Shown here in pieces: positions 15,201 through 62,174 of a stretch of 64,000 nucleotides of DNA. The stretch comes from Tubiluchus corallicola (Eukaryota > Animalia > Priapulida). Location: the NCBI GenBank assembly GCA_030141605.1, contig JAQGDQ010000019.1, forward strand, positions 248,001 through 312,000. The letters are read 5' to 3'. How positions within the stretch are numbered: position 1 is the first letter of the stretch; every line of letters begins with the position of its first letter. Made by a program: the position numbers and the translations under genes. The notes beneath the pieces were generated by a model that worked only from the letters and a program-made list of their open reading frames with translations, was not told where the DNA came from and did not search any database.

Positions 15201-18200
15201 AGACTGTCGTGGTCTCTCTCAATCCCTTCTATTTGGTTCTGTTGCCATCCCGCCGCAGTCAATCGTGGGTACTGCTGAAGAATAAGAGCCGTCATTTCGG
15301 ACTTTTTCATTTTGACAAGTTTGTGTGGGTGAAGCAGTGGCAGATCCTTCATGTCAGCAACTGCGTCAGATTGAAGGATTCCGTTGATACCACCCACAAG
15401 CCCCGCCATCAGATTTCCAAATGAAGTGTCAACATGGTTGACCTCTTCCTCGCTGAAGTCCTGGATCAAGTTGTGAGCGAAGATACCAAGGTTTTCCCTG
15501 AACTCCCTTGCATCACTTTTTGAGCAGATCCAGTGTCGATTTCCGACTTCCACATCACAAATAGGATCTGGATCTCCTTCATTTTCTCCTTCACGACAGT
15601 GAATGGGACAGAGTAATTGCAGAGAAGTGAGAAGATCTTGAATTTTGTGTCTTTGCACCCCGGCAATAACATTCTTTCCTTGCAAAAAACGAACTGTCAA
15701 ATGCACTTCGGTTGCAATTGAATCCAATCCAATCAACAGTACCCACCAGACTGGGCGAGGAGAAGCAGCGGGCTTTGCCTCTTGCAAGTGATTTTGGATC
15801 GTCAGCTTGTGCTCAACCAACCAACCGGTGACTTTCTTCATTGAAGCCCATCTAGTGTCCACGAAACGAGGGCAAACAGTTTTCATTTCATTCTGAAGTC
15901 TCTTCTGCCTCCTCAAGTATCCGATCAAATTGAAAAGCTCGTTGAGAAAGAGTCCATCTCCAAAGTTCTTATAGTTGCTCTGCATCTTCAAATCCAATTG
16001 ATGCAAAGCGCACCAAATTCGATAGATTTCCTGTGTAGCGGTTGCTGCAAATCGAGTGGCTACACCTGACACACGTCCAGTCATGCTGGGTTCACCGTCA
16101 CTGGTGAATGCCAGCATAGTTCCTCTCCAACCTGGCAAAATCGTATCCAAGAGTTTCTCGCAAGCATTGTAGAGGTTCTCAGCTGTTTTCTTGCAATGAA
16201 GCGGGATGGCCAGGACATGAAAATTCTGAATCTCTCCTCCGTAGTGAAAACGAATCCTGAAATCTAAGTAGTTTGCATTGTGCTTGTTTCCAGCATCTAC
16301 AGCGAGTGAAAATGCCCAGCATCCTGCCAAGAGGTTTGCCAACTTTTGCAGGTTCAAAGCCACTAGAACTCGTATGTAAGAAGCACACTTTTCCTCGTTA
16401 CAGCCAACATAATAATGCAGATTCGTTTCTTCCTTTGTAGACTGAACAAATTTCGCGGCCTGCCTGAAAGTTGCTCCGTCCCTAACGAACTTGACCACCA
16501 ACCTGAATTGAGCTGAAGACTTCACGGTAACTTCAACCTCATCGTCAGTCTCTGTGTTATCAAAGAAGGCAAGAGCTCGAGCTGCTGAGAGTCCCTCTTG
16601 TTCATCCGGATCAAACAACATTTCTGCAATGATGTTCTGGACGATGGAAGATTTTACCCTGAACCGTACAGGAGCCTCACCTTCAAAATGAACTGCCAAG
16701 GAGTTAGAACGCGGAGTTCGTTGCTCAAAAAACGTTTTCTTCTCATCGTCAGACAGTTTCTGGTAGTCCTGCCACATCAGCTTGTGCTGCTTCTCATGAT
16801 GTTGGTTGTAAAGGAAAGGTCGAAATGTTGAGAAAAACTTGATGTTGTCAGTTCGTTGACGCTTTCCTCCAACGTTTTCTTCTCGTCCATAAAATTGGCA
16901 GAATTCGCATCGAACGCTTTCAACCCGCCTGCTTTGTGTATTGACTTGCACCACCTTCAACCCGAACTTCAATTCATGCCCGTTTTGGAATTTACTAGCC
17001 ATCAAGAACACCGAGTTGATCTGCTTATGCTACAAGCATTTAGGGAGTCATGATAGTAACCGATTATCTATTCGTTACGTCACAATCAACTATTGGCGAC
17101 AGTATTTTAAAGAAAAATTCTGTGTACCGACTTTTAAAAGCATCACAATTAGCGAAAACAGTGGCTACCAGGCTGGGGTAACGCCGCTAGGATGAGAAAG
17201 GCACTGAAATGAATGTGCAAAGAAAAGAATTAGAAGTGTAGATTTCTGTTATTGTGCAGAGCGTAGGTTTGAGGCAGCAGAACTTTAGGACATTAAAATA
17301 GGTAAGCTGTCTTTAATTCAAATTTTCGATGGAACGACAACGATTCTGTCGGTGCCTATTTATTTTTTCGCAGTAACGCGCTCATTAACTTTTTATTATT
17401 TAGGTTGCTTCTAGACGAGTTAATGACAGATAAACGCATCAGTTAGACAGTCTCAGTTACTGTGTTAGTCCACCAAACAGTCACGCGCAAGTTTCTTATG
17501 GACTGCCTGTGTGTGTGTGGGAGAGAGAGAGAGATGGTGGAAACAGTTTTCTGTACTGAATTTTTTGTTCCATTCATCGGGAAATGATTCTTTTTCTTTC
17601 GTTATTTATGACAAATTTGAAATCTTATTTATGACTATTTAGGACTATTTTGCAAGAAAAGTCATAAATAAAGTGCCCTGCTTATATGCCTTTTGAAACT
17701 GTCAACTAATGAAGCACTGATGGTTGATGATGAAAGATGATTCCATGGTCGAACTACACGATGCCCAAAGAAGTGTGATCTGATGTTGGTTGATCCACTA
17801 ATTATTTTGAAGCAGTTCACAAGGTCTACAGTCTCACGCCTTTGTTCAAGAGTAGAAATTGAAGCGGGATGAGTGCAACTATCCTGAGTTCTTTTAAGAG
17901 CATTCTTGAGAGTAGCATACTGGGGTGACCATAGAAAAGACAGGTATTGCAGAATGGGTTGAACAACAGCTTTATAGAGAATAATTACTGCTGCATTTCT
18001 CGATATTACACAACGCTTAATCGTGCCAATACACGGTTTGCTAATTGGTTTAATTTAACAGAGTAACATAGAATAACACAGAGCACATAATTTAAATCAC
18101 AAAAATCAAGGTGCCAAAACGTCACAAACCAATAAAAGTTGAGTTTTTGATACAGGTTTCTAAAATTTCAAACAAGTATTCGAAATTCGAGTTTGTAACC

Positions 18201-19720: not shown

Positions 19721-20522
19721 TTTTCAAAAAGAAACACATTCAGTTGTTAGAATGCGTACTTAGCAGAAGAGATTTGCAGAGCCCGTAGTTATTTGTACCC
19801 TGATTGGAATATTGTGAACAGTATAATAGCAGAACTTTCAAGGGATTTTTCTAAAAACAGTTTAAAGCCAATACACAGGTAATTGTTGTAATTTTGTAGG
19901 ACAAATGAAGCTCAGCCATTTCTTGCTTTTACTTTTGCTCATCTTTTTGTTTCTGCTCTTTTCATTAGTGTACAGTACTTTGGCTTTCACTGAAGCTTTT
20001 GCCTTTAGCAGTGTAAGTCTTGTTTATTTAAATAATATAAATGATCATGTGTATAATTTTTTTTCAGTGATTATATTTATATACGTGTGTATGTATGTAT
20101 GCACGATTATGTCATTGATTCACGTCTGATAGTTTTGAAGATGCAAATCAATGGTAAATTTTACTGTTGTGGTCACACTTACAGCTTAGGTCATTTTCGT
20201 GATATCTAACTAACTGCACATGGTAAATTTAAAACCCCAGCATAAAAATAATGGTGAGGTTACTATGAAGCAATTAAGTCATTACAGCATGAAAATGTAA
20301 CGTAAAGAAGTGCAGCAATACATCCTTAATTTGTTCTGTAGCTAGCCTTTTAATAACGCTGTGTCTAATTTTATGAAGCATCATGTTTTTTAGCAATTTT
20401 ATTCTAGCATTTGCTAGCAGTGTCAATCCTTAGTTATGTACACTGAATGATATAATGCATTGTATGATGTTTATAATCATTATTTTTTATGGCAAATAAA
20501 GATATTATATGTCATATATGTG

Positions 20523-20543: not shown

Positions 20544-20752
20544 GTGCATATGTGCATTCGTACTCAGATTTTTTTATTATTATTGCAGGTGTTGTTGGAC
20601 AACGTGTAGAAGAACTTCACAAATAATGCAAAAATTGTAGATGGAAATCCACTTTTTACTCAGACTTGTATTGTGTAGAACAATTATAAACCACCTGCCT
20701 ATGTATTTTGACTTCAGAGGACTTACATAGCTTAGGCTGCATTGAACCAGTA

Positions 20753-21635
20753 ATGCAGTCAACTAATGCTGCACTTCTTATATTTCCTATGCTCTTGCTT
20801 TTGACAAAATCTGATGATTTTGTTATTTTAGACAGCAGAAACACAGGTGCAAGTTGGACAATGTTTCAGACAGATAAGGATGAGAGCACTTGGACATATG
20901 ATCCAGTATCAAATGCCTTTATGGTAAATTCTACCCTAACTGCAACTGCTCAAGACAATTGGCTAGTGTCACCATTTATTGCTGTTGAAGGATTATCCAG
21001 CATACATGTTCGCATAGAGTTGTTGTTTAAATGGTGTAACTATAGCGATAGCAAATACACTCTAGACAATTGTAAATTAGATATAGAATTGTTCCAGTTG
21101 CCATCATCTACACCCTTGGGCAATCTTATTAATCGTACTAATGACTTCATAAAAATAGATTCAATAAAACCCGACAAATATGATGTCAGCTCAGAAATTT
21201 TTATTGAAGACATTCCATTAACTACAGGCTTACCTGGTCTTTATGTGGCCTTCATTGATAAAGGTACAGAAATGTCAATTACAGGAATTGCTGTGACAAC
21301 AAAAGAATTTTGCCCGGAAGTCGTCACAAACCTTGTTCATTTTCCGCGTAGTTTGGCATCGCAAAATGTCACAGGAAGTTGTGTGCCAAATGCACGATCT
21401 TCGGAAACCTTTCAAAGGGAATGCAAAACTTCTGGTCACTGGGTGGTGTGGCTTTCGGGGTCCTGTGATTGCTTACCAGGTTATTTTGAATGTAATGACA
21501 CATGCATTCATCTTGATTGTCAAGGACAAACTTGCACAAATATTGATGCATGTGGAAAATTGCCTTCATTTTCTTGTCAATGCACAATGGAAAAGTGCAC
21601 CTGTCAGGATCTGGACCTTTTAAAGCAAAATGCAG
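20753..21635 (+). CDS. Exon encoding signal peptide, Eph receptor ligand-binding domain and sushi/EGF-like Cys-rich region
   Basis: Hydrophobic leader MQSTNAALLIFPMLLLL. Eph-type motifs VILDSR, QDNWLVSPFI, WCN..NCK, FIKIDSI, GLYVAFIDKG, CPEVVTNLVHFP, VTGSCVPNA and C..SGHW..GSCDCLPGY. Ends at a phase-1 donor CAG|GTATGG. Confidence 0.85.
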
Positions 21636-24600
21636 GTATGGTATTTCTATAAAGCTTGTAGTGTTGTAGATGCTCTGCTACACACAGTTGTACTTATATT
21701 TCGTTAGGCCTCAAGTATTTTCTGTACTTGTTTTTCATATAAGAGTTGCATAGCAATGTTGTTTACAATAAAATGAGTTTTACCACTATAGTAAAATACT
21801 TCATTTCACAGATTCACTTAGATTTGTGTTTTTTTTTTCAAATTGTTGTAAGTATGTGCTTAGTGCACTATGTACTGTTGTGGAATAAGTTAAACTTAAT
21901 TGCATATCCAAACCTTGCATAGTATCAAACCATGCAGGAAGCCTCTACAAATATTTCTTTTTTCAATGCGTAATAGCTATATACCAGTCGCGGCTCGTGC
22001 ACTGTTTACTAGCGTCTGCTGCTAGGTAGAACAGTACTATCTCTGTCACAGTAACAATTGCCACATGTTTACTGTGCAGCATCATATTTTTGGATGTGAT
22101 AAAGTGTAAACTTAGCATGTGAGCTTAAAACATAAATTATTTAATAGTGAATGACATGCATCCCCAAGAAATAAGTTCTGTGACTGTAAGAGCAGCCCCA
22201 CTAATTTTAGCTACGTGCCACCACTGTTATGTACAGTGCAAGTCATTTTGGTCCAGTGCACCAGGATCTCAAAAATATCTCTGAGTGACCTTTGCATGTG
22301 AAATAAATTCACATAATGCATTTTCTTTTAGCTAAATTTTCAGTGGATGGCTTTTCACATTTTTTATCTGCAAAATTGGAATTTATAATGTTAGCTTCTG
22401 TTTGTGGTAAGACTGTTTGTAACATTATAAAATTTCAAAGATAGATTTTCCACTCTATATTACTTTAATTGTAGATTTGGTAATATATTGTACAAGAACC
22501 TGTTTAAATTTAAATTGTGTGAGAGTCACTGGAATTATTTATAACTATAATTCTGTTTTCCCAAATTGACCACTATGGAGAAAGTGTCTCATCTCAATTT
22601 CATTTTACTCAACTTTAATTTAAGATTAAGTTGTAATGCTACTGTATGATGTGCAGAAAGTTAAAGCCTGTCTCCTCTTTTCATTGCAGATTTTACAATG
22701 TTGAACTATCCAGCAACAGAGTTTGCTTTCAAAACAAATGATGTGTACTATTATGGTTACATCGAAATTCCACTAGACTTGCAGCCATTACAGCCAGATC
22801 TTGATGATATTGTTGCTGTAACCTGCAGTGCTGTGGAAACTTATGAACGGGAATCGACACAAATTCATTTTGAAACTGTGAATGTACCACCTGGCACAGA
22901 ATCCGTCATGGTTAAAGGTTGGATAACTCAGTATAATGCAAACAGCACACCTCGAGTGGCATGTTTTGTAAAATATGCTATTGCTAATCAAGATGATTAT
23001 ATGGGACCAAGGGTCTTTGTCATTGATTCAGAAATCAGATATAGGTACTTTTTTGCATATTTGCTAATATCCTTTAGGTTTTCAGTTCGTTAGGTTCTTT
23101 ACACTTTTTTTGGCTTGACATTATTAATTGAAGAATTATGATTTCTTATGTAGACAATTTAATGCTTATTGTGGTTGTGTTTATTGGCACAAATTTGTAA
23201 TTAAACACAAAATATGTATATAATAAGTGTTTGAAACAAAAACTTAAAGGAAAAACTGCACCCAATCTTAAACTATACCTCAAAACATTATAGCCTATAA
23301 AATAGTGAAAGGGAATGTACTATTGTTTCAATTACAACTTACGTAAAAGAATTATTGCCACAGAATGGTAATTGCACGTTCGCATGACTTGTTCTTCGCT
23401 GTTACTTGCATTTCACTGTTTGTTAGTTAGATGGACACTTGTGCTTGCATCTTGGAAAGGCTTTGCACAAAAAACACGTGCTGTACCCTCTGTTCAGTGG
23501 TGATGTAGTGCACACATCAAGAGCTCCTGCGAGCTCAAGCAGTAAAGTTGAAATTTAAATTTTTAAACTTAAAATTTGCTAAGTTTTTTGTATATCATGC
23601 TGAATGTTGTGCAGTAGTTTTGCTTTCGCAGACATGTGTAGCACCTTGTTGAAAATTATATTCAATTGTGTTGTCAACAGTGTGGGGCTTGCCTGCTTTT
23701 AATTGCGTGAGTGTGTGCATCTTAGTCTTTTCTTATAGTACCCACATCCTAAGCGTTCTTCATATAAAGTGCGTTAAAACAACAGCGATCTAACTACAGT
23801 TGAGATCTGATTACTGCTTGGCACGTCTGCCTTCATTTATCTATGGTAGTTTGACTGACGGGATTTACTAGGATGTGTAAATGCTTTAGAAATCATATTG
23901 TTTACAGCTTGAAGGTGGCAGATCTTTTTTTCTTATTAGTTTTCTCTAGCTTTTATGCTAGTGTTAAAAACTTGGAACAGATTGCTTCTTAGGTAGCATG
24001 ATGTATAGAAAGTAATGCCACACCATGAAATTGTTGCCACCTGTTACTAACATTTGGGTAGTACTTTCATAATTCTTATGATGCAGAAATCTCTTCATGG
24101 CATGAATAGATCGCAGTAAACGTTTTTCATTTTACACTATCATCTCAATGATTGCTCAGCTAGATAAAGCAACTAAACTGAACTTGGAAATTTTGACTAA
24201 ATTGTTTATAATAAGAAACCTTGTCACGCAGTCTATTTTCATTTATCAACTGCTGATTTTTTTAGGATGTTCACTCTTGTCGCAGCAAAAGCTCCGGTCA
24301 TTCAGTTGTGCGGTGATTTGATAACTGTTCCACAGTACAGTGATATGGATACATACATTGTGCAAGTCAAGCTTTCTGAAGCAGTTGAGAACAGCAGTGT
24401 TACAGTGACTTGTGCTATAGTTGATGAGCAAGGTATGTAGCTGCAGACTTGCAGCATTCAAAAAATAATGTATTATACATAGATACATTATGCTGTATAC
24501 ATTGTACACTAAATTATAATGTCGAAGGGGTACACTAATAATAGTCGTGACCTACTTGTGTTTCCTTATTAAGTGTGCGCTAGCGTTTGCATTTGTCTTA

Positions 24601-27600
24601 ATATTTCATTTTTTTGAATTGCAATTTTCTTGGGCTTGGTCATTAACTTAACCACAGTGATCATAAATCATAAATAGAATTCTGTAACATTGAAATCTGC
24701 TTTATTATAGAATATCCAAAACTTTTTAAAAGTTAATTATCATGTCTAAATTTATCTGATAAAAGTAGAGTTATAAAATTAGAACTACTGGATAAACATA
24801 TTACGTTATTTGGTAATATCGCTTAACATTGCAACCTACCGTAACACACTAACAGGAAATTTGTGCATTGATTTTTGTTTCACCACAAAAGAAAAATTAT
24901 AATTTGTAAATTACTAGCATTTAAAGTTATTTTTAGCGATCGGAAATATTTTTAAATGCACTGTTTTTGACCACAAGGGAGTTTTGGTGACCGTAGCTCA
25001 ATGTGACGCCTGGTAAATTATTCCAGCCATTTTGTTCATCAGTCAGTATTGTTTTACCTTGAGTTTCCTCAATAAAATAAATAATATTAATAATAATGAT
25101 AGTTGTATAAGATGCTTATCTGGCACTAAATTCTGCATTCTCTTTGTAGACAATGGCCTGAAATTATCTTTTCATCCTGCTGTTGCTGAGTTAGGAGCTG
25201 TTTTGTTGGACATATATTACAGTCTAATTTCCATTGGTAATCCAGTATTAGTGCAGTGTTTTGGTAACTCTAATTATGGTACACAGTACGTTAACAATAC
25301 ATCAGCTGGTAAGTGACAAAACCGCATTGTAGTTGTTTGCTTAAGTTGACTTAAGAAAATCAGTGTAACGATGTCAATTGTTTTTTCTTAAATTATTTTT
25401 GTTATTCTTACAGTATTTAAAAACTATTTGCCTGTATATAAATTATAGGTTTTTCACTGAAGATTTTTTTAGTTTTTGACAGATTAGCACAACTCACATC
25501 GAAACTTAAATGCCATCATACATTGGGAATTGAAGATTTTATGACTAGTTTAGGAATTGGATCAGCTTACTGTTCTGTCTAAAAAATGAATTTTCAGAGA
25601 GCTTACTTGAAGCCATAGCTTACATTAAAAATGGGTGTACAGAAGAGAGTAAAAAGCGTAGAGTAGGGGGAGTAGGGGGACATTTGTGCTTTGATATGAT
25701 GTTAAGCAGCACAGGTGGCTGGCTAGAAGAGTAGCAGGAAGACTACTGCTGGGCAATATGAGCTTTGAAATTACTTTTTATATAAGATATTTTCTTGTGT
25801 ATACGCATGCAAATGTGGCTACGGCTTTTCTGCTGTTTTAATGTCTCATCTCTGAGGTTTACACACAATGTCGTTGAATGGTGCTGTACCCTAGGTTGCA
25901 AAGTGTCAAACTATATACTAAAATTTGACTCCATAGAGCTTGTTTCATATGTTTTCAGGCTAGCCTTATATGTTTAAATGCCCACAGTTTGCATAGAAAG
26001 CTATTTTCTACATAAAAATTTGATTTTGCAATTGTTAGTGTTTATATTAAAATTATCTGACACTAGGTGAGTCGGTGATGTTTGTGCTGGATACTGGTTC
26101 CGTCCATTTAACTCCTGTTCAGTCTCCAGTCTACACTACAAAGATTGAGCTATTGTTGCTTCTCGATGCTGCATTGCCTGAAGGCGAACTGATTTTTCAG
26201 TGCTGTGTGGATTCTGTAAGTACAAATGCACATATAATTAAAGTTAACTAACTTTGGCAATAGTTAAGCAAAGAAATATCTCTAGTGTGAAGGAAAAATC
26301 AGATATGTCAGACAATTCAGCTTATCACATTAAATTATTTTCTTTCACAAAGACATCATCTGGTGCTGGTTGTTATATCCTATTTAATTAACATAATTAT
26401 ATGGAAATCTAGTGACATTAAAAACGAACGAAAACCAGTAACTGTGTTTTTCAATATCAACAATACAAAAATAAAAGCAGAGAGTTAATGTATTATCGCA
26501 GTGGCAAGTCAACCAGATAAATCCAAACATTCTACACACAACAAGTTGTTCTGAATTTTCTGTTTAAATTCTGACCAAAGAAATAATGTTTCAATGCTTC
26601 TGAAATTTAAACAATGAACTAGAAGTAAAATTAAGAGGAAATAATCAAGATCCTGACTTTCCTGGAACTTTGAATTGCAATATTTTGGATTCAGTTTTTT
26701 CTTGTTTTGATTTTTGCTATGCCACAATGCTACTTTAATTTTGGTTATAGGCAAGTTTATGTTTGTTGTAGGTATATTACCGTGCCTTGAAAAACAATTG
26801 CGAGAGTTGGCAGTATTTGTTTTAAGTGGGTATCGGAAAGGAGTTGCTTACTGCTTGTGTCGTTTATATTGTGCCATATTATGGCATTGTTAGTGTAATT
26901 ACAACATTTATTTTCTATCAGGATATTGCAGCAATCCAGGCTTTAAGTGGATTGAGTGCCTGCCAGTGTCTTGCAGATTACAGGGGCTTAGATGCTTCAA
27001 TGTTTGTTACCTCATTAGCAGATGAGGCTGTGATTAACAATGCGAGTGCAACATTAACTACCACTAACGTCATTGCTAACACAACAAACACTTTACACTT
27101 GGTGAATGAAACAACTGATGTAAATGAGACGGCACCATCCAATGAGACGACAAGCAATCTAACGACTAATGGTATATAGAGGAATTTATACATTTTACAT
27201 TAAGCTAGTACAGTGATATATTTAATTGATAACATAAGCCCCTATATAACAAGTGAGTTCTCCGTGTTTTTATTTATTTAGTATTCCATTTAGTATTTTG
27301 GTTCCTGTGTATTTAGAACCTTCTCCATGTTTTGCATATAGCAACATATTGTTTTCGTTTGGCTGCAAAATGTTCTGGCTAAAGACAGTGTAATGATGCC
27401 AGAATCAGTAGTATTACATGTTATGTCCATGGTCCCAATCCAGGGACTACTGCTGTCAGTCCCCTTGGGATTGGTGTAAAAGGCAATAATATACATTGTA
27501 CTTTAACAAAGCAAGTAACAAATTGTAACAACATCACTATTAAAAGTAGTATCTGCATTTTTGCACTTATGAACCTCTTACGTGGAACAGATTCAAGATT

Positions 27601-30600
27601 GCTGTTAAGCTGTAAAGAGTAGATCTTACCTGAGGGTTAGTTCTGGAGTCTAGTGTTTGTCACTGGTGGCTCTGGATGCCACTTGGATAGGTTAGAGCAC
27701 CTAGGTTAGAGAATTTCTCTTAAATTTAGAAGATACTGCACACTTGGAAATAATCAAATCAGTGTAGTGTATATAAATCAGGAAGTGGGGGCCCTGGCTT
27801 TTTAAAATCATTTAAATGATTCCTTAAATTGCAATTAGTAAATTTCTTTCTCCTGCAGGCACTGCATCGATCCCACTGGTGTCAAACAATGATGATGCTG
27901 ATAAACAAACGTTTACTGCCGAAACCAACATATCAACTGACAATGGTGTCTGGCAGCTTGTTGAAGACAAATTTTTATTTCAAGTTAGTGCTAATGTTAA
28001 TGTGTTTTTGGTAGAAGTTAATTGATATTTTTTATTATTCTTAGTATACCCACTGTATTTATGATGTTGATGTAGTCAACATGCTCAGCTGTAGTTAGTG
28101 TACATTCTCATCTTCCTGCAGATGTTTTCAAAGCTTTTCTTGTTTTAAGGTCTTGAAACATAAAAACCTTAATATTTAGTACTTTTTGGCACATTACTAA
28201 TAGTTCATCTAAAAAGCTGTTCGATTTTATACTGGGAAGTAATTTTTTTTGAAACTGATACCGTAGATTTTTACAGACGGAAAAAAAAGAAAAACTATAA
28301 ATTGTGCCCTTGTGCTAAATTTTCTCAGGTAGCCAAGCAAATGCCATTCCTTGCCAAAAAATTCATATCATTTGACTGTTACTCATGATGGATATGCATT
28401 TTAAAGGCAAATTTTCATGTTATTTTAATTTTCTTACATAGATATCTTGGTTGTTTTCTTCAGACTGACGAAGTATACAAGAAAATTCAAGTTGTTCGAA
28501 ACAAGTATACACAGAAACCTAGGATAGAATACGTGTCAGTCAGTTGCTGTGTTCCACCAGTTATCAACAACGTCGAAAAGTATATCAATATGACCGTGAA
28601 TTCCACTGTAGCTGCTGACATATCACCAACATGGCAGTTCAGCTGGAACAATACCACAGGTGAGTCATATGATATGAGTATGTGATAAAATTGAGAATTT
28701 GTCTTTATTGTTTTGCACAGAGAGCTGAAATCTTACAGAGTAGATGTGATTCTACTTCAGGTTTCACTTATACTGTTTTGGTCTGTCAAAATAAAGGGTG
28801 TCAGGGCCGAGGAAATGATTGCTCACTTCTGTACAGAAAGAAACTAACAACACCATGCCATTAATCACAACATAAGTGTCTAGTACTGTCATTAATCACA
28901 ACACTAAGGGCCATAAATGAATAGTGTGATTTATGTTAGTTGCGCAATGGTGTCGTCACTCTTTTCTTCAAAAACTTTGTTGATTTTTGATATCTCACAA
29001 TGAGAAGTGAAAAGAATTTAAAAAAAACATTAAATAAAATGTATACTAATGATTAAAGTACTTAAAATATGTTTATATCTATTGGTGATAACTTTTACTA
29101 TATCAGGTCTGTCATATCCTGACACCCTGCAGTTTGTATGGAATCTTAATGTTTGCAGTTTTTACTCTATTCTGTAATCACATTTCTGTTCAACTAACTG
29201 GTCCCCAAGACAAAAATAACACATGTCTACCTTTTCCTACAATTTATACAATAGTTTTTCTTCTTCTTATTTTTATTTTCTATTCTTGGAATGGCTGTAC
29301 AGTGGTAGCAATATGTTAATTTGGTTATAGTGGAAGAAGATCTGGAAACTGAAACAGAATTTCCTGAACCCGAATTTGTGGAAATCTCTCCTTGCACATG
29401 TGATGTTTACACTGCTCATTGTGATACAAACTGTTGTTGCGATAAGGTGAGAGCCAGCAGCTTTACTAATTAATGATTTTTTAATAATTTTTTATGCGCA
29501 AGCATCGTAACTGCTCCCGGAGGCGCAACCAGGGTTTCATTTAGCTAGAGTTGCTAAAGTTTTTTCTTCTTAAAGTTGTCTATTTGAGTTATTTGTCCAT
29601 TTCTCCATGTCTTTTCTTTCATCAGTAGTACCTTTTTGATTGGTGGAGGCATTGGAAATAATGGGAAATTGCGTAATCGTCCACAAAAGTTAACGAACTT
29701 GAGAGCAGCAGTCATCCCCTTCTGTGCCCAGAGGTAACTGGGAGTGGGTGGTCACACACACACACACAGTATAACCTCTAGCAGCACAGTATGTCATTAA
29801 TGGTGTCATTTCTGTGTTTAGTTCAGCTTCATGTAATGTTTTGCCACTTGAAGTGGGGCCCTTAATGCTTGCTGCCCCGGAACCCTCAATGGTTTTCGAG
29901 GGCCCTGGTGGTATTATGAAAATGCACATATCTTGCTCATAGTGAACACTTTTTGTGTAGTTTTTTGTGTTTTGTTCACTGAACTAGCATTTAGTTTTAT
30001 GGTTTGTTAACATTAAGAAACTCTGGCTTAGTACTTCCATGCGTGACTACAGATGATTCCGTTGTTAGTCGTCCAACCTTTGTCTAGCATTAATTAACGG
30101 TGGGAAGTAAACAATAACAGAAATGGCTTGTCAGAAGCAAATTATAGAAAAATACCCATTCATAATATCTTCTGTTTTGCTGCAGTGCTTTTAAGAAATA
30201 TTGCTGATTGTTTTATTAAGAAAACTTTGTGCCTGGTATGATATTTATTAATGTACATAGAAGTGTGGTAACAGGAACAATAACAAGATTATGGAACAAA
30301 TGAGATGGTAATTGTTTTTACAGGATTGTTCTGAAGACGCATTACATGTATTTCATTGTTTGCCAGACCTATTTGGTGGACAAGTTGCTGATCCATATAC
30401 CTATAACTGCTCAGCTCGTTCCCTTTATTCACCTGATTGGTTTTCACTTATGTGTGTGCAAGTCAGTAATACAGCTTATCTCGGTGAATACTTTTCAGTC
30501 GTTGAGGGATTAAGAAGTACAGCAAGGTGAGAGCTAGTATTAAAAAATCGGAAAAACACTTAAAAGGGTTTGTTATTTATTTTTGCACTTTGTTTTTATG

Positions 30601-33600
30601 TTTGGTACAATAAGTCTAAAAATATTTAAATTTGAATTATCTGTATTGCCGTTGCTTTCATTTCGTTATTCCTATGACCAAAGGTAAGCTTTCTAAGTCC
30701 CAGGTGAAAAGAACACAAGGTTTGCCACATTTTTAGTAAATCCATGTAGGATCATTCTATCCATGTTGTGCAGATTAGTTACTAATAGTTCCCAATTCTT
30801 TACTAATTCCAATTTACCAATTCCTAATTAGTTACTAATTCTTTACTGATTTTACTGGCTTTACTGCTACCTTTGCTACATTCAAATTTTACTGTTGTTT
30901 TGTAATTTTAGTTATGCCCAATTTGTAAATAACAGAAAACCTGACTTCGGCTTCCAAGAGACTAGCGAGAGAAATTTTGAAGGTAATGGACAAACTGAAG
31001 AAACAGCCGGCTACATACATGGCAAGTTTCATATCTTAATTTTTTACTTTGAAGAAAACTAGCAAAATTGGATTAGAATGAAGTAAGGAAGTAAACAGCG
31101 TTAAAGTGTTGATTTCTGTAAGCCGATTGTTTTTTTTTTGTATATTTAGAAACACAGCATCTGCTTGAGAAGCATGGAGGCTTATTTTTTAAATTGTGAC
31201 AATACTAGCTTTTTCTGTTGAAAATATATTTCTGGTTATTAGTCTTTAAAAAGTTAATTGTTATTAAGTCTTTAATTCTGTTTAATGTTACATCAAATTT
31301 CATTTACTATTTAGTTCACTAGAATATGGGTTACATTTTTATAGGTGTTTAACATTTACTTAAATGTTAATGTTAATTTTGATTTAGTTTTATGTTTTTG
31401 AATTTTGTGTAATGTTGAACAACTTCACTGATGAATAGTAATAATTCATTTGTCTTAGTAAGTTAGTACATGTACCAATCTTATGTTTGTCAAATACAGC
31501 AATAATAATACTTATAATGTCTAGGTACCACACTTAAGACAAGAGTGGAAATTAATGGTAAAATACAGACTGGATATCTTGCTCTTCCTACACGTTCAAT
31601 CAATGGGCAATGTACTATGGAATCTCCTCTTCGCTACCTTTTTGACTTCTCTGATACTTGTGTAAACACCATAAGCAGTCAACTCTGCAGCGAAGAATCT
31701 ATTTTAAATGCACGCATATATGTGCTTCCATCAGCTGTAACAAAGACCATGTGTCCTTTGCCACCATTGTTGTTAAAGGAACATAATGGAGTTGAAGTAA
31801 CTGACATTGTTGTCGACTATTTGTGTTTAAACAATAGCAACAGAAAGACTGAGAATTTCTCCCTCGCTTCCTTGCTAAATTTCAATACAGTGCTACCAAA
31901 TGGTTTTGCTGATGACCTAATAGACTGCCAATACGTGTACAGTCGCAACATTACTTTGCCACCCCTACCTACATTTAATTCTTCAATAAACATTTGTTCT
32001 AATGTTGTTCTTGATGTGAAGTACACATTTTTCTGGACGGGTACCATGATATCAAAACTTCATGCTTTGATTATACTTGGAAATATTTCTGCCTTTGATA
32101 CTGTATCAACTAAGCCAATTCCTACACAGATTATACAGTCATTTTCTGCTGCGTATCGGCACATTGGACGCAATACATCTCTAGAAAATGATGAGCCAAA
32201 ACACCGCTCTGGTATGCCAGGATACGATATTGGGAAACCCATCTTTAGTGGAGTACTGCAAAACAATTCACAAACAAATGACCAGTACATAGACACAAGC
32301 AAAGCATTCGCTATTATTAAAGCACATAATGATGGTCTTTGTCATAATTCTACAACAGAAGAAATATTATTTGGCTGGAATATTCACACTGGCTGTCTAG
32401 TGAAGCTTAGTTTGGAAGACTTGTCCGACTGTGATAATTTAAATAAGCAAGTGAAACAGTTCCTTGATAATCTTATTCCTTCTTCTCATATCAGTCGTGG
32501 AGGAAGTCCAAATAGGAATGTTCTTGCAGAATGGATTTCAATTATTAGGTAATGGCACATATTGTTTTAATAATTGACTGTTTTGTGCATATATTTATTT
32601 AGCGAATGTTAATTACGAGGTAGTCCTATATTTCATAGTGCTTTTGGTGAAACCATATTACATTTGCAAAGAATATGCTGTGTATATCTAACATGCATAT
32701 ACCTTTTATAATGTAACATTAAGAAAAAACAGAGTTGTAACTGGTCATCAGTATTTCTCATCCACAATTTGTGGGTTTTCATAGTCGACATGACATTGGT
32801 TACACTTGAACAAAAAGTAACTGCTACTGTGGGTGTGTGGTGCAAATTTACCAGGCACAGCTAATCAGTAGTCACTAATTTGAAGTTGTTTCTTATCCTG
32901 GATTTCCTTACATCTATTATAGTTGTATTAAAAGTAATTACAGTGAGTCTATACTTTATTATTGAGCTGTTAGTCTCAGACAAGTCACTCAAAACATTCT
33001 TTTTCTATATACATATAATGAGAAAGGGTTAGTTTTTGGAGCCCACACCAAAACAAGTCCTATTTGGTGTATACATGTGGCATCAATTTATTGGCCTAGC
33101 ACCTGCAAATAGTTCTCTAAGGTGGAATTGAAAGTTCTTGCATAGCTAACTGTTTTAAAATATTAATTTTTTAAATAGACCTAAAATAAAAAAGAATTAC
33201 AAAGAATAGTAGTTTCCTAGGCACCAAAAATAAATATTTTTTGGTACATGCAAAAGGCATATAAATTTGGCCAAATAATTCCAAATTAAGCTTTTGGAAA
33301 AGTTTCGATATTCGGTTCTAAGGTTTTGGCAAATCATTTTAGGCCCATGACAGTTAGAGAAGACAACAGTTAAAAGAGGATATTTCAGCACGTGCTTTTA
33401 GCTTTGCTACAAGCTCTTTCATGATTGTAAACATTTCTAGGGATACAAGAGAGAGTACAAACAAAACTGAAAATGTTACCAACTTTCACAAGAGTGACAC
33501 CTCGGCCACCTACTCCTTCCTTCAACAAAAGGTAAGTTCCAAACTCATCTTGAAAATGATACCAATTTTCAAAAGAATAACATCTTGGCCACTTACTCCT

Positions 33601-36600
33601 TACATATGATACGTGCATAATTATTACCGAAACTTTACATTATGATATTTACAATGATTACATGAGATGAACTGTATTAGTAGTTTACAGTAGTACAAAA
33701 CGATACGTTGGTCTTTTACCTTATAAAATAGTAAACGACCTAGCTCAACTCAGTACAGATTGCCCAGAAAATATATAAACGTGGACAAAAAGCCAATTTG
33801 GTATGAATAGGTAAATAACCTTTTGAGAAGTGATTAGGCAGAAAGCCATATAATAAGGCCTACAAGTTATTGATACAGAATGGTTGCACGTTCATTCATT
33901 AGCAAAGAGAAACTTGTCAGCATATCCAGGCAACCAATGTTGTTAGAAAATAATGACACCATGCCTCAGAATATGCCATGCTGGCACATTTCTCGAACCG
34001 GTAAGTTCCAAACTCATATTTTACATGGGGTGCTTTTCTTGCTGGATTTGGATACCTGATATATGGATGGATCGGGTATCCGGTGCATCCCTAATTTTAT
34101 GTAGCAGTCATGAACTTATGTACTCACTAGTGCTTCAGCATGTAAAGATGTACAGTCATTAGTTATTGAGTATGTGACAGTAATTTAGTTAAATGTTTAT
34201 TTATAAATGTTATTGACAGCAAGGATATGGAGCCTAAGGAATCTATTACATTCATTATTATTTAAAAATCAGAATATGAGATGTACATTTGTTAGTTATG
34301 CACCAGTAATTTATTTTAATGTTTATTTATAAAGATTACCGACAGCAAGGGTATTGAGCCTAGGGAGCCTAGGTTATTTAGAGTTTTGCCTCAACCTATA
34401 TGCGAAAACATAACAAGTGGAGTAATGATAGACATACTTTACACCAAAGCTGGTCAAAGCAATGGGCATTCAATATATGAAATAAATGGAGCTAAGCTAA
34501 AGTGAGTAACAGTATTAATTTAGAAAGGTAAAGTCATGCTGTGCATTTCAGAGTATTTCGACAGGCTACCATAAGACACTGTATTTCTGCTCAAGCTACT
34601 TTTTAACAGCCTTGGCTGATCAGTTTAATCAATGCATCTAGTTAACTTTTCAGCTGTTGAGAGTGTTTAGATTGTAGCCGCATCTATGTGTTTTTGACAG
34701 AAAGCCCTTAATGATTTTATAAAAGGGCGGCAAAATGCAGTCAACTCCCAGATAAATGCAAATGCAAACCCGGATACATTCACCTGTTTGCTTCTGATTA
34801 AACTACTCATTAAAAAGCACCTGTTATCTGTGAAAGCAGAAGCATAAAACAGTTTAATGTAAAAGTATAACAGATAGATTATTTGGTCTTGTCACCAAGC
34901 TTATCGGTCTGGAGAATACCACGATTTTCATATATGTTTAGGTGCTAACTATAGTGTTACACCTTGTGATATATGACAATTTTAGGAAATGTTATTCATC
35001 CAGCTTTTAAACTTATATACCAATTAGCCATAAAAAATTAAAACTTTTGCATTGCATTAGTGGCAGATACATTAATTTCACTAGTTGTGATTGTTTTAAC
35101 GAATTACCAGAATTTATCAGGTCAGCTGTTTTATTTTCTGTTTACAAGTAATTGTGCCTGCTATTTAAGGTACATGTACTCCAACTGGTATTTGAGTTGT
35201 TCTGGAGCAGATGCTATTCGTTGTCAGGGTAACATTACTGCCGTTGAATCATTTGTCATCTCTAGTGAAGTTACATTCACAGAAGTGCCACCTAAGCCAT
35301 TGCCAGTGCAAAAACGGTTAGTCTTTCTGTTATTTCTAAAGTTTTGTACATTTACCTGGCACATTTGTTACTCATAAATTACCCTTCTTAATCTGTTACA
35401 CAAATGCATTTGACAAGGGGAACTGTCCGAGCTGTGCAATAATCAGAGTTCGGCGAAGTCACATATTTTTCTCGGTGAACCACTTTCAGTCAAAGTTACA
35501 CTGAAAGTTAAACCCAATTGTTTCGTCATGACCACTATGTATTTTTCATCAATTCATTATCAGCTAAGTTCATTAATGACAAGATCATTATCAGTGTAAG
35601 ATAACTTTTTGCTGATTCCACAGTGATTTTTATGTAGTGACTAGTGACTACTGTATTATATTATTGGTAAGTTTATTGTTTATTTTACATCCCTATTTAC
35701 ATGACAGCTAGTAAAGCCCCGTACTGTACTGTACCATATTGTACTGACAATAATCTTTTAGTTACTGTTATCAGTTTTTGCCGTTAGTTTGACCTAAGTT
35801 TGTTAATAGTTTGAATGATTTTTCTACACGAAATGTATGCATTTCTTTCTCTTCCTAATATTGCCCGATTTGCCTCCTCGTTTTTACTGTAACCATTCTC
35901 TGGCTCAGAAAAGTCACTAAAAAGTACAGTCACCTCTGTAAAGTCTCTTCCTTGAAATATTCTAGTCAGAGTTATAAAAGGCAGTTCAGGCAGAGAGATT
36001 TTTGTGTGGGAAACTTTGATTAAGTAGTTTCAAACCAAATCCATCTGCATCCGCATCATACTTTACTGAATTGAGCGTTTCCAGCCATATTAGTTCGCTA
36101 AACTGCTATTTAATGATCCAGCTAGCACTGCAAGGAGCAGACCAAAAACAGTGGTTTTTGCATAAATTGTTCCCCCTAAAATATATCGAATTTAGCCATG
36201 TGCAGAATTTTGTGATTGCTTTATAACATGTGACAGTATAACATGTAAGAACAAATTCCGCTTACAGAATTTGAGGCGAGTTGTGTTGCAAATTAAACAG
36301 AATTGAATTTTTGCAGAGTAATGGTGAGTCTACTGCACTTTCCAAATAAGTTTCTTGTTGCTATAAATAGCCTTTGACTCTATGATTTTTGCACTCTCAT
36401 ATTATTTACATGTATTTTTTAGATATTGGGCAAAGAAATTACCAGCAAATTTATGTAAGTATGACACTTGTAGACAAGAGATACTTTATCCACTCACCAG
36501 TGCCTATCTAGGACAGAAACTTTCGTATGGTCTCGAATTTACTTTAATAGGTGTACTCTTCCTTTGTGGTTTGTTCATAGTTACTAAACCATGGTGGTGA
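20753..36600 (+). CDS. TCTN2: Tectonic-2-like ciliary transition-zone protein with an N-terminal Eph-receptor ligand-binding/Cys-rich extension (about 1439 aa, 16 exons)
   Basis: Phase-consistent exons: 20753-21635, 22690-23044, 24266-24432, 25150-25308, 26067-26215, 26922-27171, 27859-27983, 28464-28659, 29331-29446, 30324-30526, 30912-31021, 31525-32548, 33441-33531, 34335-34501, 35170-35316, 36423-36600. They sum to 4320 nt in one open frame. Tectonic motifs: PCTCDVYTAHCDTNCCCDKDCS, FGGQV..PDWFSLMCVQ, RSGMPGYDIGKP, ILFGWN..GC. The TCTN2-type C-terminus is ILYPLT..TM..KPWW*. Confidence 0.8.
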
Positions 36601-40596: not shown

Positions 40597-43500
40597 TCAG
40601 CTGTGTCCACTCTCTAGTTCATTAATGAGCTCAGCAAAATTGGTAACGAACCATTTGGATTCCTGTTGTACTTTTTGTCGCACCTGGTTTCCACCAAATC
40701 CTATGAATGCATCCTGGAATTTAAATTATACAAAAGGGTACTAGAACAAAAAGAATAGTTTCAAGAGTGGCCACAGTGACCATGACTAAGGTGATTGTGT
40801 TTAGTGACCAAGGTAGCACAACACATCTTGAATCAGGTTAGTAAATAGATAGGTAACCACCAAGAAAATCACTTCTGGCCAGTTATGTCTCCCACGCTGC
40901 CCCACCATTTATTTAGTTGAGGTAGAATATATATGTGGATAACATGGCAAAGATACTTTTGCCACATCAGTATTTTGTCTTACAAAATTATCCTTGATAA
41001 TGGATACAGCTGTAGGAAATAGGTCATGATTTTAAATGCTGAAACTGGTTTGGGTGTATTAAAAAAATTAAAATACAAAATGCACAAAGCTGGCAATAAT
41101 TTTTGAAGTAACCTGTACATGTTAAAAAGATCAAATATGTAAACGCAAAACTAACAGCGGTAACGATTAGCACTTGAAAGGGGGTGTAATGTCAGCTGAT
41201 TTTGCATGTGCAGTGCTAATTAATTTGTCTCAGTTTGCCTGTCAAATATGTCAACAAGTTCTAAACCTTGAGCTAAGCATAACACTTGGTAATACAGTAA
41301 GTCCTCTCTTAAAGACGCTAATATGTTCTTGTTACATATAATGTAAAAGCACTCTGTTGTATTCCAGGAGTAAAAATCAATACTCGTTAGTAGTGTAAAA
41401 GCATTCAGTTGCTTCCATTAGAACAGATCCAGTGGAACAAAAATCAGTGAAGCTTAGCTGTGTAAAAGTGAAAAGTGTTCAAATATGTTGCATTCAATTA
41501 AACACTATAATTTCAGTGCTTACAGTTCTAGCATCAGGCGGCACAGAAAAATAAGTGCTGAAATATAGATTGCAATAATATTGAACTGAATGGCTTACAA
41601 AGCTGAAATTTCACAGCATGATATTACAGTGCATTAACTTTTGGCTGTTAAAACTACAAGTTTATATTTTTAGGGGTTTCAAAGATGATCAAAAAGTTTT
41701 TGCACGTTAGAAAATTAAATACCAGAAGGCAGAACTATGTCAGCTAATCATCAACTGAAAAGCAGCCACATTTTGTAACTTTAAAGCATTCAGTATATGG
41801 AGTAAAAGAATAAAGGAATCAACTAGTTTACATCACGGTCATCACCAGAAAAAATAAAGCATTGATAAAGATTTGTTACCAAGAAAAAATGGGACTAACC
41901 CAAATTAAAAAGTTAAAAAATTAACTACCAGAAGGCAGAACTACGTCAGCTAATCATCAACTGAAAAGCAGCCACATTTTGTAACTTTAAAGCATTCAGT
42001 ATATGGAGTAAAAGAATAAAGAAATCAACTAGTTTACATCACGGTCATCACCAGAAAAAATAAAGCATTGATAAACATTTGTTACCAAGAAAAAATGGGA
42101 TTATTGATTAAGAATTGGGCTTTATTTATAGAATGCGAGCGCAGTAAACAAGAATCAATACTTAAAGCTGAAAAATTGTTGTTAAAACAATATATGAGAA
42201 GTGGTGCATCATTGAGTGAGGACTTGCAATATAACTGAAAGATAGCTTTCTGACATAAAACAGGCTTTCAAGAGACCAACATTTAGTAGTGTCAATTGTT
42301 TTCTTTAGGTTGGACTCGAAACAGTGTTATATTGTATGTGTTAATCTTTTTTCGTGCAATCTTTGGGCTCATCATTTCTTTATTTGCGCTCAAAAATTGT
42401 AAAGATTTTCACAAGTATTTGCAAATTTATAAAATAGAAGGCATTTAACAAAAAAGAGCTCTGTTTCGTGACCTGATGCAAACTGTCAATATTAATGAGC
42501 TTAAGTAATTTTCATGCCAACTTTAAAATGTTCAGTTACAAAACAAATAGCTTTGTGAGAAAATTTTTTGTACTTACTGCATAGTCAGGAAATGTCTCCA
42601 AGTCTGTTGCTCCATCTCCTATCATGACGATCGTTTCATACCCATGTTTTTTGCGAAGCACGTCTAAGACTCTAGGCTTGCCTCCTGATTCTGACGTTGG
42701 CTGCTGCAGATCAAAACCTACATAGCAACCTGAAATACTATCATTATAACAGTTTCCATATGAAGTGCTGTCATTATCATTAAAATGGACATTCAGAATT
42801 AAGGTATTCCAACAGAATGAGCAAATTTGCATTTTGTGAAAGTTGTGTGCTGTGCCAGTTTGTTTCTGTATTACCAATGTTGACTCAGTTTTGATGCACC
42901 AAGCAGCCAACAGCACCCTGTGATTTGCTATAATAAAATCAATTTCAGCTAATCTGGTTAGATGTAGACAAATTATAAACTCACAGGAATCATTAAATGG
43001 TGTTTTCCTGGATAGCACCAGACATGTAAAAAATAAAAGGCACCAAAATTCACTATATACAGGAGGCACCGCTTAATAGACTCACTTTGGGACCGAAGTG
43101 TTTTGCCACAATTAACCGACTGAACCTATCAACCGATGGTTGTAGTATTACTGGTATAGAAGTATGAGTCATCAGCTTAGTATGCACTGCAAAAGTTTTC
43201 AATGAATTTTAGAAATGAAGTAATGCCTAATTTCCTTTCTACAGTTAAAAATTTAAAAAAAAATATTTTAAAATATTAATTTATATAAGTGAATTAGCAG
43301 TAAATTAAAAAGTATACTTTTCTAAAGCACACAAGTCTGTTTATTTGCAAAAATTACAAAAATTCCTTCAATGTCGGCTGCTTCATTTCATTGTGAAGAA
43401 GTTGGCTCACAAAGTTCTCAAAATTATAAAATGTTGAAAATCTGTTGTTTTTTATGATGCACAAATTCTCCTAAAATACTTTGTGCTTGGCATGTTTATA

Positions 43501-61679: not shown

Positions 61680-62174
61680 ATATGCTTATAACACCTTAGT
61701 TAGACCTAGAATGGATTATGCTTGTTGTGCGTGGAGCCCTTATGCCCAGCGTAATATCACTAACTTGGAAAAGATTCAATGCCAAGCAGCCTGTTTTGTT
61801 AAAATGAATATCGCCGAGAAATTGACATTGTGACGTCACTACTACAACAACTAGAATGGAACACTTTGGAGAACAGACGGTTGCTCCACCAAGCCACAAT
61901 ATTCTATAAAATTCAGTGTGGAGTGGTGAATATACCCTTTCCTATGCGCGTTGTACCATCCTCCTTATGCACCCGTTCATGCCATCAGTACAAATATGTC
62001 GAAGTTCCTTGTAGTGTCCTCTTCTACATATATTCCTTTTACCCCCAAACAATCAGGATATGGAACAGGCTTCCAGCCATGGCAATAAATGCTAGCTCCA
62101 TCAAGACATTCCGACACGTGACTCTTGATGCCATTAGAGGCATGGAGCCGCCCGTTCATATGGAAAGATTGTAA
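61680..62174 (+). pseudogene. 5'-truncated LINE ORF2 3' remnant
   Basis: DYACCAWSP..LEKIQ, SLLQQLEWNTLENRR..FYKI and YSFYPQTIRIWNRLP motifs with frameshifts. Confidence 0.8.

What the first reader, a model, noticed from the sequence alone, without database searches (positions are those of the whole stretch)
20753..36600. Apparent Eph-receptor ectodomain :: Tectonic-2 chimeric gene
Seen in sequence: 16 exons with matching splice phases sum to 4320 nt in one open frame. They run from a signal peptide and Eph ligand-binding/sushi/EGF module (first about 294 aa) to a complete Tectonic-2-like protein with a C-terminal TM helix. I found no Eph FN3, kinase or SAM exons and no second signal peptide before the tectonic motif. 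Established: Tectonics are extracellular MKS-module transition-zone proteins that affect Hedgehog signalling, and the ones I know lack Eph domains. Inference: exon shuffling through the phase-1 intron at 21636 put an ephrin-type binding module on a ciliary-gate protein. This could be an undescribed link between ligand sensing and the transition zone.
Basis: partly seen in the sequence, partly recalled or inferred. Interest (0 to 1): 0.85.

Follow-up and report, generated by a model that had tools for sequence, protein, structure and literature searches.

The report
Eph-like head on ciliary tectonic protein
In this invertebrate (likely a priapulid worm), an exon for a domain of the kind Eph receptors use to recognise neighbouring cells sits in frame in front of the gene for tectonic, a part of the gate at the base of cilia, likely giving one long surface protein whose altered binding head would tether the gate to something outside the cell rather than signal like an Eph receptor.

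Summary
Sixteen GT-AG exons give 4320 nt and 1439 aa in one frame. Exon 1 encodes a signal peptide plus an Eph LBD-CRD-EGF module (Pfam; fold Z about 21). Exons 9-16 encode a tectonic with a C-terminal membrane helix.

Corrections: (1) About 470 aa lie between the two; exon 2 is predicted to be an Ig-like sandwich. (2) The head groups with kinase-less Eph-like membrane proteins of Priapulus and Lingula, not with Eph receptors. It shares their loss of one of the two conserved LBD disulfides, so ephrin binding is doubtful. (3) The cytoplasmic tail is four residues.

A probable RNA run at about 90% identity holds exon 1, a spliced exon 4-5 junction and exon 14, and exon 1 shows purifying selection. 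No contig crosses the fusion junction. I put one protein at about 0.75. No Eph-tectonic protein was among 150 relatives or in seven literature searches, but no tectonic orthologue could be retrieved. The scan earlier noted a C-type lectin add-on at the front of another genome's long tectonic (unchecked). Verdict: new variant of a known kind.

The parts
20753..21635 (+). Exon 1 (coding part): signal peptide (aa 1-20), Eph-type ligand-binding domain, sushi/CRD, EGF-like module; no introns inside; ends in a strong phase-1 donor
   Evidence: Pfam; AlphaFold pLDDT 85.5, pTM 0.75; Foldseek E 1.5e-18 and VIA Z 20.9, rmsd 2.0 over 156 aa to EphA2; X2 contig 20881-21072; donor score 10.3
21636..22689 (+). 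Intron 1, phase 1, the proposed fusion junction; holds an in-frame read-through stop (21650-21652), two AATAAA (21767, 22302) and repeated DNA
   Evidence: not bridged by any X2 contig
22690..23044 (+). Exon 2: one predicted Ig-like beta-sandwich of no named family
   Evidence: single-sequence AlphaFold pLDDT 63.9, pTM 0.58, all-beta; best structural matches PapD-like, ASH and MSP folds at Z 7.4 or less, none decisive; no Pfam match
24266..26215 (+). Exons 3-5 (24266-24432, 25150-25308, 26067-26215): further likely beta-sandwich repeats
   Evidence: recurring strand-loop-strand-Cys pattern by eye, pairwise scores mostly not significant; exon 4-5 splice seen in X2
26922..27171 (+). Exon 6: Thr/Ser/Asn-rich stalk, likely heavily glycosylated
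   Evidence: S+T 0.30-0.35, N 0.15-0.17 over aa 601-680
27859..28659 (+). Exons 7-8 (27859-27983, 28464-28659): likely the TCTN2-type N-terminal domain
   Evidence: weak likeness to exon 2 (z 2.9, p 0.02, best of 6 pairs); 196-nt phase 0 to 1 exon as recalled for human TCTN2 exon 4 (recalled, not verified; one search found nothing)
29331..30526 (+). Exons 9-10 (29331-29446, 30324-30526): tectonic Cys-rich region with the CxC-x6-C-x3-CCCD-x2-C motif at aa 783
   Evidence: PF25752; motif
30912..35316 (+). Exons 11-15 (30912-30982, 31525-32548, 33402-33531, 34335-34501, 35170-35316): tectonic core
   Evidence: PF07773 in exon 12; X2 contig 34374-34456
36423..36600 (+). Exon 16: C-terminal hydrophobic helix (about 36529-36585, aa 1417-1435), four-residue tail, stop; ATTAAA at 36660
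   Evidence: hydropathy 2.17 over 19 aa
20589..20752 (+). Likely 5' untranslated part of exon 1 (strong acceptors at 20589 and 20718, so a non-coding exon probably lies upstream)
   Evidence: acceptor scores 12.2 and 9.4; no RNA cover

Best explanation
Sixteen exons form one open frame that runs from a signal peptide and an Eph-type binding head, through about 470 residues of predicted Ig-like repeats and a stalk, into a tectonic core with a C-terminal membrane helix; they are likely spliced into one mRNA, and the protein would sit at the ciliary transition zone and hold the head outward as a tether rather than as a signalling receptor. Origin (inferred): the 5' exon of a kinase-less Eph-like gene, of the kind found in Priapulus and Lingula, was joined through a phase-1 intron to a long-form tectonic gene and now supplies its signal peptide. 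Working (inferred): the tectonic core assembles with the MKS complex on the outer face of the ciliary base. The arm lifts the LBD-CRD-EGF head clear of the membrane, where it binds a matrix or neighbouring-cell ligand that is probably not an ephrin, or self-clusters through its sushi surface. With a four-residue tail it cannot signal alone; any effect would pass mechanically or through MKS partners. Shown: frame, domains, subfamily, lost disulfide, splicing of exon 4-5 in a close relative. Inferred: the exon 1-2 splice (about 0.75), ciliary location, ligand, tether role.
For: One frame with 15 of 15 GT-AG introns. Complementary anatomy: no membrane or Ig-type exon for the Eph part (tblastn 0 HSPs outside exon 1), and no in-phase hydrophobic first-exon candidate with donor score 6 or more in introns 2-7. 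Strong donor and acceptor at intron 1 (10.3 and 11.0). All coding exons but the membrane exon score positive for codon usage against introns. Run X2 (RNA is the tool's guess) holds exon 1, exon 4 and exon 14. The exon-4 contig ends in 18 letters that match the start of exon 5 (26073-26090) with 1 mismatch, the only place in the window with 4 or fewer. Contig depths are 29, 23.8 and 27.9, a weak hint of one transcript. 9 of 13 listed exon-1 differences fall on third codon positions (p 0.009) and 8 of 11 changed codons are silent. Tree: exon 1 with P0001-P0003 at 98/94 and with P0004 at 97/89; these are LBD-CRD-(EGF)-(Ig)-TM proteins without kinase, P0002 from Priapulus and P0004 from Lingula. 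Lost disulfide cysteines: absent in 5 of 5 subfamily rows, present in 54 of 54 and 58 of 58 other rows covered; the disulfide and pocket loops are described in PMC3782497 (passages). The transition zone anchors dendrites to matrix in C. elegans (PMC4493997, passages). Tectonics are signal-peptide proteins predicted on the outer side of the transition zone (PMC4635004, passages).
Against: No contig crosses intron 1 or any junction between exon 5 and exon 14. Phase agreement at one junction arises by chance about one time in three. Two intronic first-exon candidates were found against 0.63 expected: 21773-21851 and 29049-29106, the second signal-peptide-like and in phase with exon 9. An upstream signal-peptide-like frame at 19905 has a weak phase-1 donor that fits exon 2. 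Only 21 of the 42 X2 differences were listed and tested. X2 contigs could come from paralogues. The tree has long branches and I did not run a one-clade test. No X-box promoter motif was found near exon 1. No evidence on location, ligand or partner was obtained. The Chlamydomonas TCTN1 N-terminus matters for targeting (PMC12723291, passages), so a large N-terminal addition could disturb gate function.
Confidence: 0.5

Rival explanations
1. Two transcription units or alternative first exons. Exon 1 makes a secreted 299-aa Eph-like protein ending at 21652, and the tectonic starts from its own signal-peptide exon: 19905-19974 spliced over exon 1 to exon 2, or 29049-29106 spliced to exon 9 for a standard tectonic of about 700 aa.
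For: In-frame stop 5 codons past the donor and AATAAA at 21767. The 29049 candidate has a basic start and a hydrophobic core and is in phase with exon 9. The 19905 frame is the most hydrophobic of 11 such starts in the window. No RNA crosses intron 1.
Against: AATAAA is expected about once per kb at this base content (my estimate). The candidates' donors are weak (6.2 and 3.1, against 10.3 for exon 1), and the 29049 candidate has intron-like codon usage (-0.19). 19905 lies in a bin of multi-copy DNA (depth 96, where the least-covered bins of the stretch show 1-14). If exon 9 had its own start, the spliced exons 2-8 would have no end.
Confidence: 0.2
2. The fusion is real and the head still binds an ephrin, so that contact with an ephrin-bearing cell clusters or positions the ciliary gate.
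For: The LBD-CRD fold is intact (Z about 21 to EphA2). The G-H loop disulfide and the NW motif are kept. The exon is under purifying selection.
Against: Both cysteines of the E-F/L-M disulfide are lost and the D-E and J-K loops that cap the ephrin pocket are shortened (PMC3782497 passages). The Pfam score is low (49.8 bits, against about 145-255 for kinase-bearing Ephs). There is no kinase or tail.
Confidence: 0.12
3. The fusion is real but this is a spare tectonic paralogue that has left the cilium and acts as a general cell-surface or cuticle-associated glycoprotein, while another tectonic gene serves the gate.
For: The tectonic core is very divergent: three word-based searches and the ESM Atlas found no relative. 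No X-box was found. There are about 34 N-glycosylation sequons.
Against: The Cys-rich motif, DUF1619 and the terminal helix are all kept. The searches need shared 5-mers, so a blank is weak. The rest of the genome could not be searched.
Confidence: 0.13
4. An assembly join at the repeats in intron 1 has placed the first exon of an Eph-like gene before a headless tectonic gene.
For: Intron 1 contains high-copy DNA (depth 130-207), and no listed DNA contig spans the intron.
Against: Strand, phase and anatomy fit exactly, the window has no N, and parts on both sides occur at similar depth in X2.
Confidence: 0.05

Closest known systems
Tectonic family (TCTN1-3, C. elegans TCTN-1, Chlamydomonas TCTN1; PF25752 + PF07773)
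   Same: Signal peptide, Cys-rich region, DUF1619, C-terminal hydrophobic helix (family features from PMC4635004 and PMC12723291 passages). Several intron phases match those I recall for human TCTN2.
   Different: About twice the usual length (1439 aa against 679 aa for Chlamydomonas TCTN1 in PMC12723291), with about 780 aa before the Cys motif, including an Eph-type head that no paper or record I saw shows on a tectonic.
Kinase-less Eph-like membrane proteins: Priapulus caudatus XP_014668223.1 (P0002), Lingula anatina XP_013417960.1 (P0004), unnamed P0001 and P0003
   Same: LBD-CRD-(EGF) head at 27-35% identity, one clade, the same lost disulfide, no kinase.
   Different: They continue into true Ig or EGF repeats, a stalk, a helix and a short tail (457-571 aa); here the head continues into unnamed beta-sandwiches and a tectonic.
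Eph receptor tyrosine kinases (EphA2, EphA4 ectodomains; PDB 2x11, 4m4r)
   Same: LBD jelly-roll plus sushi fold.
   Different: No FN3, kinase, SAM or PDZ tail; one of two LBD disulfides lost; pocket loops shortened.
TMEM67/meckelin
   Same: An MKS-module membrane protein with an N-terminal receptor-type extracellular domain (a Frizzled/ROR-like CRD that binds Wnt5a; PMC12119803 passages). It is a precedent for a ligand-binding head on a transition-zone protein.
   Different: Unrelated protein, conserved architecture, known ligand and co-receptor; the head here is a lineage-restricted add-on.
Long-form invertebrate tectonic with a C-type lectin exon (scan note e1-9514229, unchecked)
   Same: As noted there: a long tectonic with repeat exons and a foreign binding domain at the front.
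   Different: Another genome and another domain; there the lectin exon follows a separate signal-peptide exon. I could not retrieve those sequences.

Membership tests
Tectonic family | DUF1619 tectonic domain (PF07773) | tested here: met
   E 6.5e-16, 59.6 bits against cut-off 22, exon 12
Tectonic family | Cys-rich N-terminal region (PF25752) | tested here: met
   exon 9 E 1.6e-6, above cut-off; exon 10 continues the profile at 44-105; motif at aa 783
Tectonic family | N-terminal signal peptide on the same chain | tested here: inconclusive
   a hydrophobic start exists in exon 1, but its splice to the tectonic exons is not shown; no dedicated predictor was run
Tectonic family | Location at the transition zone in the MKS complex | not testable with these tools
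   needs imaging or pull-down
TCTN2 subfamily | Orthology to TCTN2 rather than TCTN1/3 | tested here: inconclusive
   no tectonic sequence could be retrieved; the terminal helix and intron phases agree with recalled human TCTN2 only
Eph receptor tyrosine kinases | LBD + sushi + EGF ectodomain | tested here: met
   the EGF part is modelled at low confidence (pLDDT about 50)
Eph receptor tyrosine kinases | Two FN3 domains, kinase and SAM | tested here: not met
   0 tblastn HSPs outside exon 1 for 172 Eph-related proteins, many full-length
Eph receptor tyrosine kinases | Two conserved LBD disulfides | tested here: not met
   G-H loop pair kept; both cysteines of the E-F/L-M pair absent
Eph receptor tyrosine kinases | Ephrin binding | not testable with these tools
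Kinase-less Eph-like subfamily (P0001-P0004), head only | Clade membership and shared disulfide loss | tested here: met
   98/94 and 97/89 support among 37 rows, long-branch caveat; 5 of 5 rows lack both cysteines

The most novel reading that the evidence does not exclude
The front end of long invertebrate tectonics is a swappable cassette that different lineages have loaded independently with recognition domains: an Eph-type head here, a C-type lectin in another genome by the scan's unchecked note. The ciliary gate would then carry its own addressable adhesion head, here one from an undescribed non-ephrin Eph-like subfamily, and this would be the missing direct link by which the transition zone grips matrix or sheath cells during dendrite anchoring.
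Probability: 0.2. Interest if true: 0.8.

Novelty: new variant of a known kind. Interest (0 to 1): 0.52.

Why it matters
What the extracellular tectonic domains bind is open; PMC12723291 (passages) says DUF1619 lacks functional annotation. The transition zone anchors dendrites to matrix in nematodes (PMC4493997, passages); the passages I read name the matrix proteins but not the transition-zone surface protein that grips them. A natural fusion of a cell-recognition head to a tectonic would suggest that the outer face of the gate is a place for ligand contact and gives a defined domain to test. It also exposes a kinase-less Eph-like subfamily in priapulids and brachiopods with a remodelled pocket, which I did not find mentioned in the Eph-evolution passages I read. 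The limits: one poorly tractable lineage, an unproven junction, and domain shuffling is common in animal surface proteins.

Tried and rejected
Whole-genome search: no genome is held. Sequencing runs: no holder on record as RNA; only X1 (contigs, apparently DNA) and X2 (RNA by guess) were listed. The lack of X2 cover over exons 2, 3, 6-13, 15, 16 and intron 1 is no evidence either way. Word-based protein searches with exon 12 (longer and near lengths) and with exon 9 plus flanks found nothing, so the question whether annotated TCTN2 orthologues carry this head stays open from the tectonic side. The ESM Atlas gave no usable hit for exons 2 and 12. PDB sequence search gave no tectonic. Metagenome scans with exons 2 and 12 found no relative. 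Exon 2 fold searches gave only a generic Ig-like sandwich, best Z 7.4; the ASH/MSP rows are not taken as a ciliary link. Internal repeats in aa 295-761 were not significant in local alignment and significant in only 1 of 6 semi-global pairs. X-box scans were at chance level (5 against 3.3 expected; 11 against 12.1). Three early exon-7/8 boundary options were dropped for the stronger acceptor at 28464. A search for human TCTN2 exon boundaries failed. Literature searches for an Eph-tectonic link or long tectonics listed nothing that describes one; I saw listings and abstract starts only, except for the papers named as read in passages. Supplements were not opened; those of PMC6993872 may list Priapulus or Lingula Eph-like sequences. 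No complex prediction was run, because no partner sequence was available.
Full report
1. Observation. From the sequence and splice-site scans I rebuilt the gene. Two exons have alternative in-frame acceptors, so the true length may be 1418-1439 aa. Pfam finds Ephrin_lbd and Ephrin_CRD in exon 1, DUF1619_N across exons 9-10 and TCTN_DUF1619 in exon 12. There is a hydrophobic N-terminus, a 19-residue C-terminal helix followed by four residues, and about 34 N-glycosylation sequons (on a near-identical model). tblastn with 172 Eph-related proteins hits only exon 1 in the whole 64 kb.

2. Anatomy. The protein has five parts: signal peptide (aa 1-20); Eph-type LBD, sushi and EGF-like module (to aa 294, all in one exon); a middle of 467 aa with no Pfam match; the tectonic Cys-rich region and core (aa 762 on); and the helix. 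Exon 2 alone folds as an all-beta sandwich at modest confidence, with generic Ig-like matches only. By eye the middle holds three or four copies of a strand-loop-strand-Cys pattern and a Thr/Asn-rich stalk, but the statistics are weak. From memory, human TCTN2 has a 196-nt phase 0-to-1 exon just before its Cys-rich exon, as exon 8 does here, and the same phases around the Cys-rich exons and at the last junctions. I could not verify this. If right, exons 7-8 at least are tectonic's own.

3. The head. AlphaFold with a 64-row alignment gives pLDDT 85.5, and the model matches EphA2 and EphA4 ectodomains (Foldseek E 1.5e-18; VIA Z 20.9, rmsd 2.0 over 156 residues). An exhaustive phmmer over 1.84 billion representatives gave 254 hits, 150 listed; four stand far above the rest (E 1.8e-41 to 9e-24, next 2.8e-16). 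These four are kinase-less single-pass proteins, LBD-CRD-(EGF)-(Ig)-TM with a short tail; two are named, from Priapulus caudatus and Lingula anatina. In a tree of 37 rows (36 hits that I chose from the 150, plus exon 1) exon 1 joins P0001-P0003 at 98/94 and P0004 at 97/89, on long branches. All five lack both cysteines of the disulfide between the E-F and L-M loops, which are present in 54 of 54 and 58 of 58 other covered rows of the 59 in the alignment. In exon 1 the D-E and J-K loops are shorter than in the vertebrate-type rows. PMC3782497 (passages) describes these two disulfides as conserved and these loops as capping the ephrin pocket. The donor was therefore likely not an Eph receptor but a derived Eph-like gene, and ephrin binding is doubtful. 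The nearest named relative, and earlier notes on this genome, point to a priapulid.

4. One gene or two. For: the two halves complement each other. The Eph part has no Ig-type or membrane exon by tblastn. The tectonic part has no convincing signal-peptide exon in introns 2-7 (one weak candidate in intron 2 passed only the looser scan). The intron-1 sites are strong. Run X2, about 90% identical and RNA by the tool's guess, has three exon-matching contigs: exon 1 (20881-21072), exon 4 (25171-25314) and exon 14 (34374-34456). The exon-4 contig runs six letters past the donor, where intron 4 and exon 5 begin almost alike, and its 18 loose letters match 26073-26090 with one mismatch. The middle exons are thus spliced as modelled, on 24 letters of evidence, below the tool's 31-letter bar for a bridge. 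Of 21 listed differences (of 42 in these contigs), 13 are at third codon positions (p 0.007), 9 of 13 in exon 1, so exon 1 is a living coding exon. Depths of 29, 23.8 and 27.9 fit one transcript but are a poor measure. Against: no contig crosses intron 1. Exon 1 could read through to a stop at 21652 with AATAAA at 21767. Two intronic first-exon candidates appear against 0.63 expected, one of them (29049-29106) signal-peptide-like and in phase with exon 9, though with a weak donor and intron-like codons. A signal-peptide-like frame at 19905 has a weak phase-1 donor that would fit exon 2 and skip exon 1, but it lies in a bin of multi-copy DNA. I put the fused mRNA at about 0.75.

5. Is the architecture known? 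From the Eph side, 0 of 150 relatives matched the tectonic part by blastp or significantly by phmmer, and none carried the Cys motif. Pfam scans of 61 of the 150 listed no tectonic family (for 12 of them only the best five families were shown). The same scans show the Eph head on other non-receptor bodies, such as ZP-domain proteins (P0049 from Mercenaria, P0119), so it is a mobile module. Clustering at 50% could hide a fused form, and 104 weaker hits were not listed. Seven literature searches showed no such fusion. PMC6993872 has no occurrence of 'tectonic' or 'Priapul' in its main text and states that Eph architecture is unchanged in Metazoa (passages; supplements not seen). PMC10084454 gives the canonical Eph layout and notes that sushi contacts help clustering (passages).

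6. Mechanism. Tectonics are signal-peptide proteins of the MKS complex, predicted on the outer side of the transition zone (PMC4635004, passages). With a four-residue tail this protein cannot signal by itself. I infer that the core docks in the MKS complex and that the beta-sandwich arm and stalk hold out a recognition head which binds matrix or a neighbouring cell, or clusters with itself. In C. elegans the transition zone anchors dendrites to a DEX-1/DYF-7 matrix (PMC4493997, passages), and TMEM67 shows that an MKS protein can carry a ligand-binding head (PMC12119803, passages). A tether role at the ciliary base is therefore my best reading (0.5 overall). Rivals are separate or alternative first exons (0.2), a non-ciliary paralogue (0.13), true ephrin binding (0.12) and misassembly (0.05). 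Nothing here shows location, ligand or partner.

7. Verdict. The tectonic core meets the sequence tests for its family; the protein fails the tests for an Eph receptor. It is a new variant of a known kind: a domain-shuffled, long tectonic with a remodelled Eph-type head, probably lineage-restricted. A cilia or Eph specialist would find it odd and worth an RT-PCR, more so if the lectin-headed tectonic noted elsewhere in the scan holds up.

Noticed in passing
P0001-P0004: A subfamily of kinase-less Eph-like single-pass proteins (LBD-CRD-EGF/Ig-TM) in Priapulus, Lingula and two unnamed assemblies, all lacking the E-F/L-M disulfide; P0001 and P0002 share a conserved tyrosine-containing motif in the short tail. 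I did not find it mentioned in the Eph-evolution passages I read.
   Followed up: partly
window 34162-34248: Degenerate tandem copy of the exon-14 acceptor region and its first 45 or so coding bases (34291-34376); the copy has lost the AG. The X2 loose end fits both about equally (7 against 9 mismatches in 30).
   Followed up: partly
window 19905-20012 (+): Signal-peptide-like open frame with an acceptor at 19900 and a GTAAGT donor (phase 0); X1 contigs match up to 20018 and then diverge, which suggests copies elsewhere in the genome. Its downstream partner exon is unclear.
   Followed up: partly
window 14918-17029 (-): Intact intronless 703-aa ORF that looks like a hAT-type transposase by eye; no Pfam match at E up to 5.
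   Followed up: no
window 54200-54877 and 59296-59967 (+): Two tandem TMEM53-like exons; the first matches DUF829 at E 5.8e-43, the second was not scanned.
   Followed up: no
window 42536-43072 (-): Frame containing a phosphoserine-phosphatase-like motif (recognised from memory; no Pfam match for the whole frame).
   Followed up: no
window 13926-14291, 17662-18054, 61803-62174: Short frames resembling decayed C-terminal ends of LINE reverse-transcriptase ORFs (by eye).
   Followed up: no
P0049 (Mercenaria XP_053400627.1) and P0119: Eph LBD-CRD joined to a zona-pellucida domain: another non-receptor use of the Eph head.
   Followed up: no
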